DNA of 64,000 nt from Bugula neritina (lineage: Eukaryota > Animalia > Bryozoa). Location of the stretch: positions 12,571,801-12,635,800 of the forward strand of contig OZ037767.1 of assembly GCA_964035545.1 (NCBI GenBank). The letters are read 5' to 3'. Below, piece by piece: positions 752 to 62,100 of this stretch (the first letter of the stretch is position 1; the number at the start of each line of letters is the position of its first letter). Below the pieces are notes generated by a model. It was not told the DNA's origin, did no database searches, and worked only from the letters and a program-made list of their open reading frames with translations. A program made the position numbers and the translations under genes.

Positions 752-3700
752 ATGGTAAGTACTGATCTTATGTTCTGTATTCTTTAAAATAACTTTAGGA
801 AGACATTTTTGGAAAAAAATACTTTCAAATGTTTATGTTTTGCATTTTATAGTCTGAAATGTTTATGCATTAAATAATAAAAGACCATATTGCAATTCTG
901 TAAGGTAATAATATTATATACAAAAACTCACAAGATGCCGTATTTTTCATACAAAATGGTGATTCTGATATATTTATTAGGAAGAGAAGCAGATAAAGAA
1001 AGAGCCAACAACTCCAACATGGAAGGAAGTATTGAGAGGAAGTACTCACTGGATTGTTGTGGTACTCTGTATAATTAATCTCATCCTTTGGTTTGCATTG
1101 CTGACGTACACAGTGACTCAGTTCTCCTCTTTGGACAGAGAGATTGAAAGCATCTCAGTTGCTACTGAAAAGAAACCGTCTGCTGCGAAATTGACACAAA
1201 CTAAACAGGAAGTAGAAGAAAAACTCATAGTGAGGCTCACAGATGAGATAAGAAACATACGGACAGAAAGCGAAAGAGAAAGAAAGAGTATAGAAAGAGA
1301 AACCAAAGAGTTGAAGGAAACGTTGCTTTCACTTGAAACACAATATGATAACTTCAAAAGATTCTGGAAGAAGATGGTAGAGAAAGTAGGTAGTCATTAG
1401 TTCTGTAATTCACATGAAACAAACATAGCCAGCCATTTCTTGATGGTTGCTAGAATAATATTGTACTGTAGGTTCTCTTCCATGAAAATAATAGAAGTGA
1501 AGTGAGAGCAGAGAGACCAGAAGTATCTGCAAGCTTTGTGTTTATTATGACAAACACAACAACTGAGAGTGAAAGTGCTGACTCAGGTAGTGGCGAATCT
1601 CCAATTCTGATTGGTGGAGAGGTGCTAAAAGATACCAATACCGGTGTGTTTAACTACTCACCTTTGCAATCGACAAATGAAAGTGTTGTTTACAACACTG
1701 AGGCAGTGACCAACATCACTCAGGGAAACCAATATAGCTATGAACCTAGGATAAAGAAGACAAGTCTCAGGGACTTTCATCAGACCTCTTTACCAAATGA
1801 AGAAAGTGACTCCAGCTATGATGACACCAACCTACCTCTACCTGAAGAAATTATTGGACTTCTTGGTGAGTATTTTTTAGTCTCAAGTCGGATCCGGTAT
1901 TAAAGTTGGGTCACTCGCGTGATGATAATCACACTACGTGATTCTATATATAGCTTGTAGACATGGACCAAAGGGGGACAGAGGAGATGGTGGAACACAC
2001 GGGCTTCCAGGTAAAAATGGTGCACCAGGCTTAAAAGGAGAGCCTGGTGTTTCCGGATCGGTCGGAGCTCAGGGTGCAAAAGGTGATAAAGGAATGAGGG
2101 GAGATAATGGTGAAGTCGGAAAACCCGGCAATCCTGGAAGGGCAGGAACTTCTGGAGAGAAAGGAGACAGAGGGATACCTGGAGAAAAGGGATCCATCGG
2201 AGTCAAAGGAGAACCCGGTGTGAGAGGAGTTCGTGGGTTAAAGGGATATCCTGGTAAACTGGGATTGCAAGGAGGTCGAGGTGTGAAAGGTTACTGCTAT
2301 ATGACTATCAGTTTATATTTTAATTTGAAGTATGACATCATCAAATTATGCAACTATTTGCTATCATTATATTTATGCCTTGCCAAGTTTTTTATATTTA
2401 AATCTGATTATTTGTTTTTTGACTGGTTTTTGTTCATTTTAGGTAATCAAGGACTCACTGGGGACAAGGGAGATTCTGGCTCACCTGGATCACCTGGAAT
2501 ACCTGGATTAGGTGAGATCTCAATAGCTTTGTTACATACAGCATTGTATCTACCTGTATGATTTGTATCTACCTATATGTTTCTTGGTAGATGGTAGAAA
2601 GGGGGATAAAGGAGCGAATGGAATTCCTGGACTTCCAGGAAAAGATGGTAGAGAAGTTGTGATACCTGATTTGTTTCCTACAGACGTTATATCTACTATA
2701 ATGAATACAACTCTAGAGCTCATGGAGATAGGTAAATATCTACTAATATAATGAATATACAATTCTAGGGCTCATAGAGATAGGTGAATATATAATATAA
2801 TATAATGAATACAACTCTAGAGCTCATGCGGTAGGTAATATATATATTATAATAAATACAACTGTAGCATTATGTAATTTACATGTACACTACAAAAACT
2901 GGCTGAAAGCCAACACTCAAGTTATCCATTCTATGGGTAAAAATATGTACCAACATTATTATAAATACAGCCTCAATTCAATATTAATCAGTTTTCTTTT
3001 CTGTGTAGAAGTGAAACAACTTGTCGGCAGATTTTGATAGTATGTCTGCTTAACATTCAGGTGGGTTACGAGGACCTCCTGGATTAGATGGAACACCAGG
3101 CACTAATGGTATAGATGGAACACCAGGTGTAAATGGAATACCCGGTACAGATGGAACACCAGGTGTAGATGGAACACCAGGTACAAACAGCTCCTCAACT
3201 CTGTAAATTTTAAAACATGCAATAAGCAGAGAAATTAATCCTCATTAAATGTCAATTATTCTATTTAACTTTAATTGTGCATAACATGTACTTCAGTTAG
3301 TCTTATATTCTCAGTCATTAGACACTTTATAATGTGACTTATGATGAGTCTAACATGCTGTAGGAGAAGATGCATTGAGCAGTGAAGTTGTTGATATTTT
3401 ACTTCAGGCCTTGACTAGTGGTAAGTGGTATACTGATGATACGTTATAACTCACACGCACACACAAACACACACACACAAACACACACACACGCACACAC
3501 AAACACACACACACACACACACACACACACACACACACACACACACACACACACACACACACACACACACACACACACACACACACACATCATTTTGAAT
3601 AACTTGAACTGTAAACTTGACTTTATTGGCAATTGTACACAAAGTATAAAGTTATTGGATTTGTTTAATTTCACATCAATATTCACAAATTTTATACTGG

Positions 3701-59100: not shown

Positions 59101-62100
59101 CTATGGCTATGAGAGGATTTGCATGTCAAAGAGAATGAAAGCCCATCACTTTATAGAAAGCTATCTAGTTATGAGTCAGGAAACACCAGTACTAAAAGTT
59201 TCAATCTAACCCCTCCCCCCCCCCTCGTGAGTCACTAGCAGAATATCACCTCGACATACCTTGGTAGCAGCACCCAATAGCGCTGTCCTAGGCTCCTTGC
59301 TGTCAGGTTGGGCAGCGTTAAGTAGATCACTGAGAGCCCCAGTCATCTTACGGGCAGCATCTAGTAGAGTCTGGCCATTTCCTCCCTCCTCATTCCTGAG
59401 AGCAGCTATCAGCTTCACATCTCTCGATAGTCCATGCATGTTGGAAGATCTGTGGAGTGATAAATAAACAATAAATGGAATCATGTATTTACTTTATAAG
59501 TCACTCATCAGCAGTCATAGATCACGCTACGTTCATCACACTGATGCAACCAAAAGACAAAACCACAAGTGTACATACAATTCCTACACTGTATATACAG
59601 TACTTACACTGTATGCACAACACTTACATTATACATAAAATACTTACATAGTATGTACGGCAGAGCCAACGCCGGAGTAGTCCGGCTCGTCGTAGCTGTT
59701 GGACGTCATGTTGATTATCTGAGCTGTGGCAGCGTTTACGGCTGACAGATGGGAGCTGACGTTCTGCTTTGATACGTCAAACGTGTTGTTCCTCCATTTC
59801 CGAGAAGCCTGGATATATATTTTATTGAATGTAGCGAAAATCAGTCACTTATATTACTATTTTGGAGTTATGTTCTCTACATACTTATAAATTCCATATT
59901 ACATCATTTTGTAACCTGCTTCCTGGTTACCCATAATCCCTCTCTTTTGTTTCTGTTTCCATTAAAATACATTGCTGAACTATATTCCTAAACTGAATAA
60001 TTCATTTACATCTAAGTAAATCAACATATTTTAAAGGATTGCTCAATCTTAGTTTAATACAATCACATTATAATTATGAACTATAATCTAATGTGTATGC
60101 AAACAATTGTGGCTTTGCAAAGGGATATGTGCCTAGAAAACAGCTTTTCAAAATTCCAATTTTGAGGGAGGTAAAATTTTCAGCCATGAAAAAGAATAGC
60201 CTAATACGTGACGTGTGAACGCCAGTAACTATGCTGCACGTGCTAACTATAACGCTAGTATTCAAGGTTGCTGGGCACAACATCAACCAATAACGCTCAA
60301 GCAGTTACAGTGCGCTATATAGGTCAGCTTTGGTGTGCCCGTAATATTGTACAATCTAACCTAGTTTAGATCGATCGCAGGCATTCATCCTAAAGAATGC
60401 ATGTTTTTGCAAGGCTTTTTTCTAATGTTTACAAGCAAAATATAGCCTAATGTTATCACATACATGTTATTTAAAATGTCAAAAAACTATAGATTGAGAT
60501 AATTCACATTTGCACTTCTATAAATATACAAATTACAAGCTAAAAGATTACATCTCACAGTCATATTTCTATAGTTATTCATTTGTATAGTCACGTGACC
60601 AGCAGGAATGCTGGCGCTGTTACGTCACATTTCCCAGCTCATTTCAAAATCGGCGTTTTGGCTGTTACCAATCTACACCCTCAACTTCAACTAACTTTTT
60701 CTACCTTTGGTCAAATGCTTTTTGTCAATGCATGCTTAGAAAAACACAATATTATGTGTGTTTGACCTAAATGGCCATTTATTAGACAAGATAGAGCAAT
60801 CCTTTAATGCAGCTTATTATTAGAATCCCAAGTGCTGTGAAAACATAAGAAGACAATTCTAAATAGTTTGAGTGCCACATAAATGTGATTTCAAAAAGAC
60901 AATTAGTTATAGTTTATTTCATACATGCCATGTCAACTAATAACTGTTGAACAAAACAGGACCTGTTTAGCCTCACAACAGAACAAACTGAAGTCACACA
61001 TACTCATGCATACACTTTAAATGTTGAGATATTACAGTGCACAGTTCACATACAAGTAGCACCATATAGTACAGTACTAAAGAAGGTACTAGCAATGACC
61101 TCTAGCGGTGAACTTACAGCGTCGTCGCCGAGGTGGGGCAGGTCAGGTCTGCTCTCAATGTCGTTCTCTGCATTCTGAATACCGGTTATGGCGGAACTGA
61201 TAGTACCTAGTAGAGCTCTCTGACTCTGGTTGAGTCCAGCATGCAGGGCGGAGTTCTGACCCTACCGCACCAAAAAATCATAGCAAGCATTAGAACTCAG
61301 TCAAAGCCAAGGTAGGAAAGCAGTGAAACCATATATACAACAAATATATACAAGTTAGTCAAGTGAGCAAATGAAAGGTTGGCAAGATTCATTTCACATA
61401 AAATACCTATAATAAGAGTGAGTCAGTTTTAGTGACTTGTTTGGAGCTAAGGCTGAGCTATTGTGACTCGGCAAATACAGGAGTTATCTACCTTCGTCAG
61501 TAAAGTTAAAGACTACAGCACCAACTCACCCTACTGGAGTTGGGGGCAAAGTGTTGAATGCCAGAGCGGCTGTTGACTGTAGGGAATTGAGCTTGGCCCA
61601 TGCTCCTAACATCATAGTAAGGTGGGGGCCCGTTTGTACTGTTCCGTATAACACCAGGAACCGCGACACTCTCCATTGTGGCGTGGCCCTTCTTAGATGT
61701 GTTGTGTTGGATTATAGTGGCTCTACAGAATACAGCGTTGCGATTGGCTAATCTGGAATAGCGCTTATACAAAGTAGATAAGAGTCAGAAGTTATATTCT
61801 CTTTAGTGTACATGCTACTAGCTACCATTACATGAAATGGAAGAAAAATTTTGTTGGGAGTAAAACTGTAATTATAAAATTTAGAACTAGCAGCTTTTTG
61901 TCAACAACAAAAACCATAAAACATTTTAGGTATTTTTTACTAAAAATTATGTTTTTAATTCTAAATTTTATAAATTTGAATCCAATAGTCTTAGAGCTTT
62001 CCTAAATCCTACAGAGCCATGTACATGACTAAAGACACCTAAGAGTTGTTGAATCTATAAGATATGTTCGATATAAAAACATTTTCTATAGCATATGTCA

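What the first reader, a model, noticed from the sequence alone, without database searches (positions are those of the whole stretch)
2701..59660. Recurrent tandem amplification of the splice sites themselves across three genes
Seen: at least eight independent arrays whose unit contains the working splice signal. Donors: 2701-2840, 42611-42887, 44894-45335, 59581-59660. Acceptors: 25537-25776, 41332-41377, 56259-56361. Branch point: 21427-21794. Many other minisatellites start within ~50 nt of an exon edge (24816, 31655, 38607, 42241, 47130, 51265, 62803). The units are unrelated to each other and derive from local sequence, so they are not transposon cargo. In each case only the exon-proximal site preserves the conserved protein. 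Inference: a mutational process biased toward exon-intron junctions, combined with splicing that ignores or recursively removes decoy sites. This could be a route to intron growth, intron sliding or intron gain by AGGT duplication.
Basis: partly seen in the sequence, partly recalled or inferred. Interest (0 to 1): 0.78.

Follow-up and report, generated by a model that had tools for sequence, protein, structure and literature searches.

The report
Splice-junction "mirage" minisatellites, likely bryozoan
Short pieces of DNA at and beside exon borders in three genes of a marine invertebrate (likely a bryozoan) have been copied head-to-tail into the introns, a repeat type already known from lancelets and a few human genes; assembled RNA from close relatives uses only the copy next to the exon at the five sites checked, so the repeats are likely harmless, and in this window they crowd near exons about twice as often as random placement predicts.

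Summary
The arrays are real. The window holds a collagen/C-type lectin gene, COP1 (70% identical to bryozoan Watersipora COP1) and most of talin. Of 29 intronic arrays, 7 cross a splice site (2.9 expected, p=0.017) and 19 lie within 50 nt of one (10.4 expected, p=0.0001). Among those near exons, the share that crosses the site (37%) is close to expectation (28%), so the signal is exon proximity, not targeting of splice sites. Independent short-read contigs hold the talin arrays, and copy number varies. RNA contigs use the exon-proximal site at all 5 arrays checked; 3 were not checked. Relatives keep the same intron positions without these arrays, so there is no intron gain or sliding. This is the known amphioxus "mirage" and human F7/CBS-type minisatellite; my searches found no earlier report in bryozoans. 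This scan noted the same thing in annelid and urchin DNA, and one note found no genome-wide excess there. No genome was held, so the excess rests on one chosen window. Cause untested: most likely local duplications that persist beside exons.

The parts
752..5872 (+). Collagen / C-type lectin gene, 10 modelled exons, 579 aa, with a hydrophobic stretch near the N-terminus
   Evidence: Open frame; Pfam Collagen and Lectin_C; no RNA check
2688..2867 (+). Donor-spanning array, collagen intron 6, period 48-52, 3.6 copies; true donor at 2732, decoys at 2784 and 2835
   Evidence: decoy use gives a stop
20057..26874 (+). COP1 E3 ligase gene, 9 exons, 611 aa
   Evidence: 70% identical over 612 aa to Watersipora subatra COP1-like; spliced RNA contigs
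21427..21794 (+). 38-nt x 9.7 array ending 8 nt before the COP1 intron 2 acceptor; putative branch-point motif in each unit and 9 decoy AGs
   Evidence: RNA uses the acceptor at 21802 in 4 of 4 runs
25536..25777 (+). Acceptor-spanning 24-nt x 10.1 array, COP1 intron 7; 9 in-frame, stop-free decoy acceptors, 8 of them followed by GT
   Evidence: RNA uses the last copy in 3 of 4 runs, the fourth shows no joint here
27004..27160 (+). 29-nt x 5.4 array in the COP1 3' UTR; four units fewer in the related lineage
   Evidence: 116-nt skip in 4 of 4 RNA runs
29182..63884 (-). Talin gene (5' part outside the window), 40 modelled exons, 2238 aa
   Evidence: Open frame; Pfam talin domains; 55% to amphioxus talin-1-like, no gaps in the model at array junctions
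41332..41392 (-). Acceptor-spanning 23-nt duplication, talin intron 27; one copy absent in run X1
41658..42241 (-). 36-nt x 16 array starting 20 nt after the talin intron 27 donor
42614..42887 (-). Donor-spanning 19-nt x 14.7 array, talin intron 26; 13 decoy donors
   Evidence: held by DNA contigs of X1, X2, X4; proximal donor inferred from RNA contig length; absent in L003
44894..45335 (-). Donor-spanning 25-nt x 17 array, talin intron 24; 15 decoy donors scoring as well as the true one
   Evidence: RNA exon ends at 45313; absent in L001 and L003
46204..46215 (-). 12-nt talin micro-exon, conserved in position and length in relatives
   Evidence: inclusion in RNA not shown
47132..47265 (-). 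19-nt x 7 array ending 5 nt before the talin intron 22 acceptor
   Evidence: X4 contigs end in it from both sides
51265..51361 (-). 13-nt x 7.5 array 19 nt before the talin intron 16 acceptor; shorter in X1
56259..56361 (-). Acceptor-spanning 19-nt x 5.4 array, talin intron 10; 5 decoy acceptors, each followed by GT
   Evidence: X1 contig matches 56272-57068 with 0 differences; flanking exons map to human talin-1 residues up to 822 and from 823
59570..59648 (-). Degenerate 20-nt x 4 array starting at the talin intron 6 donor
   Evidence: spanned by an X1 contig with 0 differences
23232..62809 (.). Other arrays within 50 nt of a splice site: 23232, 23551, 24819, 31658, 38601, 39288, 62693 (and 3452 upstream of this range)

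Best explanation
These are 'mirage'-type minisatellites: local 13-52 nt tandem duplications at or beside exon borders, likely neutral, likely started by slippage or microhomology repair and grown by unequal exchange. Shown: they are real, locally derived, lineage-specific, variable in copy number and about twice as frequent near exons as random placement within this window. A duplication across a donor leaves the first copy joined to the intact exon, and one across an acceptor leaves the last copy joined to it, so the gene survives if the spliceosome takes the exon-proximal copy; RNA contigs show that at 5 of 5 arrays checked. Inferred: the choice comes from first-come 5' site selection (shown for human F7) and exon definition. 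Inferred and untested: the crowding comes from better survival or growth of arrays next to conserved exons (deletions there are purged; exons anchor recombination), not from a process aimed at splice sites.
For: Enrichment 7/16/19 of 29 against 2.9/6.8/10.4. Crossing share among near arrays 37% against 28% expected. Both sides are affected: 11 arrays near donors, 8 near acceptors. Two more arrays sit 41 and 130 nt after stop codons, away from splice sites. No hairpin-energy or strong composition signal. 5-nt and about 8-nt microhomology between exon end and intron start at talin introns 24 and 26 (sequence). RNA joints. Copy-number differences. Relatives lack these arrays but have their own, 2 of 6 within 20 nt of an acceptor. 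Precedent: PMC3087553, PMC3902484, PMC1557585 (passages).
Against: One window, chosen for the pattern, n=29; no genome to test. The excess fades if only about 200-250 nt of each intron can seed arrays. Clustering is steep (16 of 29 within 25 nt), which fits a short-range mutational effect as well as a survival effect. RNA evidence is from contigs, which drop rare isoforms, of a lineage about 5-7% diverged; for COP1 intron 7 it is not shown that those animals carry the array. Three of eight arrays had no RNA check.
Confidence: 0.65

Rival explanations
1. Birth bias: duplications arise more often within about 25 nt of exon borders, for example through co-transcriptional pausing and R-loops, chromatin boundaries, or repair tracts that start in a conserved exon and fail at the polymorphic intron edge.
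For: Steep clustering, 16 of 29 within 25 nt. 19 arrays of period 10+ and score 100+ in 36 kb of intron against 0 in 14 kb between genes. Slight excess of short stems in units, 4.4 against 3.8-3.9 bp, p 0.003-0.04.
Against: No excess in folding energy (p 0.11-0.29). Small 2-copy repeats outside TRF arrays were too few to test: 6 found, 4 in introns, 1 within 50 nt. The intergenic stretch is more AT-rich.
Confidence: 0.2
2. No real bias: a repeat-rich genome with short introns (median about 500 nt) whose middles are filled by young transposons; this window was picked because it looks extreme.
For: With introns capped at 200 nt all three tests lose significance. High-copy elements lie in several intron interiors (depth up to about 1000 times background). 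An earlier AI note on another invertebrate reports no genome-wide excess (unchecked).
Against: p=6e-5 for the 25-nt class under within-intron shuffling, still 0.008 with a 300-nt cap. Relatives show 2 of 6 arrays within 20 nt of an acceptor.
Confidence: 0.12
3. Function or stepwise rescue: decoys are used, either to tune splicing or as recursive (ratchet) sites that correct a mis-splice, and this lets AG|GT arrays grow.
For: Both multi-copy acceptor arrays have copies followed by GTA, found at 8 of 56 real acceptors (post hoc). A splice to a COP1 intron 7 decoy would regenerate a donor scoring 8.6, the median of real donors, leaving 96-216 nt to remove for the outer copies (shortest real intron 79 nt). 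The one acceptor duplication without GT has only 2 copies and is single in X1.
Against: No decoy joint among the 15 joints listed for COP1. Arrays are absent at orthologous sites in relatives. The regenerated talin intron 10 donor is weak (4.1). AG|GT is common anyway: 35 of 56 donors, 21 of 56 acceptors. The exon junction complex is reported to repress re-splicing (search listing only).
Confidence: 0.08
4. Assembly artefact.
For: Short-read contigs cannot span the long arrays, so their exact copy numbers are unverified.
Against: Contigs of three DNA runs end inside or lie within the talin arrays; X1 spans the 59570 array and 90 of 103 nt of the 56259 array with 0 differences. Copies differ by point changes and higher-order patterns.
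Confidence: 0.02

Closest known systems
Amphioxus 'mirage' minisatellites (Adh3, globins BflGb6 and BflGb9, troponin C, PGBD5). Seen: passages of PMC3087553 and PMC3902484; the original Adh paper (Canestro 2002) was not readable.
   Same: Tandem copies spanning 5' or 3' exon-intron boundaries; units in the same size range (10-72 bp for Adh3); decoy AG/GT kept; normal splicing; copy number differs between haplotypes; the same proposal that they could seed new introns.
   Different: Different phylum (likely Bryozoa). Here they are part of a wider set of purely intronic arrays near exons, and a null model was run. Somatic instability not tested.
Human junction-spanning VNTRs: F7 intron 7 (37 bp), IFI6/6-16, CBS intron 13, LMNB2, PDGF. 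Seen: abstract and passages of PMC1557585.
   Same: First unit spans the donor; identical pseudo-sites follow; the most upstream site is used (only it in F7, LMNB2, PDGF).
   Different: Isolated cases in human; in IFI6 and CBS two pseudo-sites are also used, which contigs could not show here. The window also has acceptor arrays, which the 5' scanning model does not cover.
Intron gain by tandem duplication of AGGT (Rogers model). Seen: passages of PMC3443670.
   Same: Five of the seven crossing arrays duplicate an AG|GT junction.
   Different: That model duplicates exonic sequence and makes a new intron. Here existing junctions are duplicated into existing introns, and no new intron position was found.
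Recursive splicing sites and their repression by the exon junction complex. Seen: search listing of PMC6224609 and PMC8184009 only.
   Same: Acceptor decoys followed by GT would regenerate a donor.
   Different: No evidence of use; introns are short (430 and 998 nt); sites are not conserved.

Membership tests
Mirage minisatellites | Tandem repeat whose unit spans an exon-intron boundary | tested here: met
   7 of 29 intronic arrays cross a site; 6 without the degenerate 59570 array
Mirage minisatellites | Both donor and acceptor boundaries can be duplicated | tested here: met
   4 donors, 3 acceptors
Mirage minisatellites | Copies keep splice signals | tested here: met
   Decoys score as well as true sites on matrices built from the window's 56 introns
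Mirage minisatellites | Normal splicing is kept | tested here: met
   Proximal site at 5 of 5 arrays checked (4 crossing, 1 adjacent), from contigs of related animals; 3 of 8 not checked
Mirage minisatellites | Length variation between individuals or haplotypes | tested here: met
   41332 duplication single in X1 at depth 99.1 of 99.1, not left out in X2, X4, X20; long arrays not measurable
Mirage minisatellites | Somatic instability | not testable with these tools
   Only contigs were available
Intron gain or sliding by AGGT duplication | New or shifted intron position relative to relatives | tested here: not met
   19 of 20 exon checks in L001-L004 have the same length and AG/GT ends; the exception is 228 against 231 nt, not a unit multiple; no gaps in the model at junctions against 6 full-length talins
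Recursive splicing array | Decoy acceptor that regenerates a usable donor | tested here: met
   COP1 intron 7 score 8.6; talin intron 10 only 4.1
Recursive splicing array | Stepwise intermediates in nascent RNA | not testable with these tools
   No raw or nascent reads offered
Transposon-borne repeat | Shared units dispersed at other sites | tested here: not met
   Only 5 short AT-rich matches for 29 arrays within the window; rest of the genome not searchable

The most novel reading that the evidence does not exclude
In this lineage minisatellites are born within about 25 nt of exon borders genome-wide, so roughly one intron in eight carries a stack of working splice-site copies. Acceptor stacks grow only where each copy regenerates a donor and mis-splices are corrected by a second, recursive cut. 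That would make the genome a natural test set of hundreds of identical competing splice sites, and show that mirages are a general marine-invertebrate mutational process.
Probability: 0.15. Interest if true: 0.65.

Novelty: new member of a known kind. Interest (0 to 1): 0.3.

Why it matters
The repeat type is known, and its cause was called unclear in the amphioxus globin paper. This window adds a likely new phylum, a high density (7 crossing arrays in 56-58 introns) and a null model that points to exon proximity rather than the splice site itself. A whole genome like this would allow a direct test of birth against survival bias, and of how a spliceosome chooses among identical acceptors; COP1 intron 7, with nine in-frame decoys that nonsense-mediated decay would not catch, is the best test site. 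It also warns annotators that such arrays create false exons.

Tried and rejected
Whole-genome test: no genome held. Sponge origin, my first guess from gene content: dropped when the nearest named COP1 was bryozoan; this rests on one best hit, no tree. First collagen model had wrong exon 2 and 4 ends (20 stops); corrected. Hairpin-seeded origin: stems slightly longer than controls but folding energy not different; inconclusive. GC explanation: intron edges 0.38 and 0.36 against 0.32-0.34 inside; small, not modelled. Birth against growth using small 2-copy repeats: only 6 found. AG|GT preference: 5 of 7 crossing arrays against 56 of 112 sites overall; not notable. Coding genes in 5900-20000: no convincing frame among 32 ORFs by eye; not searched against families. 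Full-length talin by word search: length limit excluded it; obtained by profile search. No earlier scan notes for this genome or look-alikes. Literature: no paper found on mirages in bryozoans or on a genome-wide test of them (open-licence library only, listings only; the Adh paper was not held). Supplements of the cited papers were not read.
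Full report
Setting. The window is animal DNA with three genes: a collagen/C-type lectin gene (+, 752-5872), COP1 (+, 20057-26874) and most of talin (-, 63884-29182). I read exon borders from the sequence. All 56 introns are GT-AG and all three frames are open (COP1 and talin; collagen after correction). 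The COP1 model is 70% identical over 612 aa to the COP1-like protein of the bryozoan Watersipora subatra, with no gap at exon joints near the arrays. This single best hit is the basis for 'likely bryozoan'. The talin model matches Pfam talin domains, is 55% identical to amphioxus talin and has no gap within 6 residues of the array-bearing junctions against 6 full-length talins; one homologue has a 2-residue gap at intron 27. No genome was held.

The observation. TRF at score 50 gives 37 merged arrays. I dropped 7 outside introns and 1 coding collagen repeat, leaving 29 in 26 of 56 introns. Seven cross a splice site: four donors and three acceptors. One of these (59570) is degenerate and overlaps the exon by 1 nt; one (41332) has two copies. 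The 38-nt array in COP1 intron 2 ends 8 nt before the acceptor. On matrices built from the window's own introns, decoys score like real sites: 15 donors at 11.7-11.8 against 11.8 in talin intron 24; 11 of 13 at 9.4 or more against 12.8 in intron 26; 9 acceptors at 8.0-11.0 against 11.4 in COP1 intron 7. In talin intron 10, talin intron 6 and collagen intron 6 one decoy outscores the true site. Units do not recur elsewhere in the window apart from 5 short AT-rich matches.

More than chance? I collapsed each array to one unit and placed it at random, allowing it to straddle a site. With 58 introns (two 12-nt micro-exons added), observed counts crossing, within 25 nt and within 50 nt were 7, 16 and 19 of 29. 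Expected within the same intron: 2.9, 6.8, 10.4 (p 0.017, 6e-5, 1.2e-4); across all introns: 2.0, 4.6, 7.0. With introns capped at 300 nt, p is 0.09, 0.008, 0.07; at 200 nt nothing remains. Among arrays within 50 nt, 37% cross the site against 28% expected. So the excess is one of exon proximity; splice sites are hit about as often as proximity predicts. Two arrays lie 41 and 130 nt after stop codons, and none of score 100 or more lies in the 14 kb between the first two genes against 0.52 per kb in introns. The window was chosen for this pattern, so these p-values overstate the case.

Real and variable. Four runs were laid on 40900-60000. DNA contigs of X1, X2 and X4 end inside the intron 26 array; an X2 contig lies inside the intron 24 array; X1 spans the intron 6 array and 90 of 103 nt of the intron 10 array with no differences. 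X1 could be close to the window's source, but X2 and X4 differ by 4-7% and share several arrays. X1 lacks one 23-nt copy at 41332 at full depth and is shorter at the 51265 array. The COP1 3' UTR array is 116 nt (four units) shorter in 4 of 4 RNA runs.

Which copy is used. One X20 RNA contig (depth 6.6) has an exon ending at 45313 and an exon starting at 41340, separated by 488 nt, the sum of the three modelled exons between them; this fixes both donors and the acceptor at the exon-proximal copies. For COP1, three runs from three studies join across the full 998-nt intron 7, and four of four join at 21802; none of the 15 joints listed uses a decoy. Limits: contigs drop rare isoforms; these animals differ from the window by about 5% in exons; the intron 7 array is not shown in them. 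Collagen intron 6 and talin introns 6 and 10 had no RNA check, but for the two talin sites homology is continuous only with the proximal copy. Decoy use tested shifts the frame or adds a stop in every case except COP1 intron 7, where all nine decoys are in frame and stop-free.

Relatives. A scan of metagenome contigs gave 4 talin loci at 80-88% protein identity, apparently two species. Nineteen of 20 exon checks match in length with AG/GT ends; the exception is one codon shorter. None has an array at the sites orthologous to talin introns 22, 24, 26 or 27 where covered. They have 6 distinct arrays of their own, 2 within 20 nt of an acceptor and none crossing. The arrays are therefore young and have not moved or added introns.

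How it likely works. A short local duplication forms; at talin introns 24 and 26 the exon end and intron start share 5 and about 8 nt, as slippage or microhomology repair would need (sequence). It then grows like any minisatellite (inferred). Survival needs the spliceosome to take that copy. For donors this was shown experimentally for human F7 (PMC1557585, abstract and passages). For acceptors I infer exon definition. Why arrays crowd exons is untested; I favour survival and growth beside conserved exons over a birth bias, but the steep fall-off within 25 nt fits either. A hairpin signal in units is weak. Recursive rescue is possible on paper for COP1 intron 7 and has no RNA support.

Known kind. 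Ebner and colleagues describe minisatellite-like duplications of 5' and 3' boundaries in amphioxus globins, named mirages after Adh3, with normal splicing, haplotype differences, an unclear mechanism and a model for intron gain (PMC3087553, passages). PMC3902484 adds PGBD5 and troponin C (passages). PMC1557585 lists human F7, IFI6, CBS, LMNB2 and PDGF. The AGGT duplication model is reviewed in PMC3443670 (passages). All testable mirage features are met. Searches found no bryozoan case and no genome-wide test, within an open-licence library. I found these papers before looking at earlier scan notes, which report the same pattern in annelids and sea urchins, one with a modest excess at exon borders and one with none genome-wide (unchecked).

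Verdict. A real, dense example of a known repeat type in a likely new phylum, with a twofold exon-proximity excess that needs a genome-wide test. Interest 0.3.

Noticed in passing
window 46204-46215 (-); L001 954, L002 3249, L003 511, L004 1553: A 12-nt in-frame micro-exon in talin intron 23 is conserved in position and length in all four related loci though its four residues differ. Inclusion in RNA not shown.
   Followed up: partly
window 37287-37298 (-): Second candidate 12-nt in-frame talin micro-exon with strong splice motifs in intron 32; no relative or RNA covers it.
   Followed up: no
P0003: A called protein from another relative has about 2.7 copies of a roughly 34-residue repeat running up to the start of the talin exon 12 match; likely an intronic tandem array read through up to the acceptor. 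DNA not seen.
   Followed up: no
window 44085-44900, 48746-48960, 22126-22500: Very high-copy short elements with inverted ends inside talin and COP1 introns (depth up to about 1000 times background in DNA runs); likely MITEs. One abuts the 25-nt donor array.
   Followed up: no
window 23551-23688 (+) and 39288-39532 (-): Long CT-rich tracts begin 3 and 10 nt after donors in COP1 intron 4 and talin intron 29, both pyrimidine-rich on the transcribed strand.
   Followed up: no
window 752-5872 (+): Gene with an N-terminal hydrophobic stretch, coiled-coil-like segment, collagen repeats and a C-type lectin end, resembling a collectin or scavenger receptor (family label recalled, not tested); its exon 7 is itself a coding tandem repeat.
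   Followed up: partly
window 27004-27160 and 5913-6073: Arrays just after the stop codons of COP1 and the collagen gene; the COP1 one is four units longer than in the related lineage.
   Followed up: partly
window 5900-20000: 14-kb AT-rich stretch (GC 0.27-0.31) without a convincing coding frame and without strong minisatellites.
   Followed up: partly
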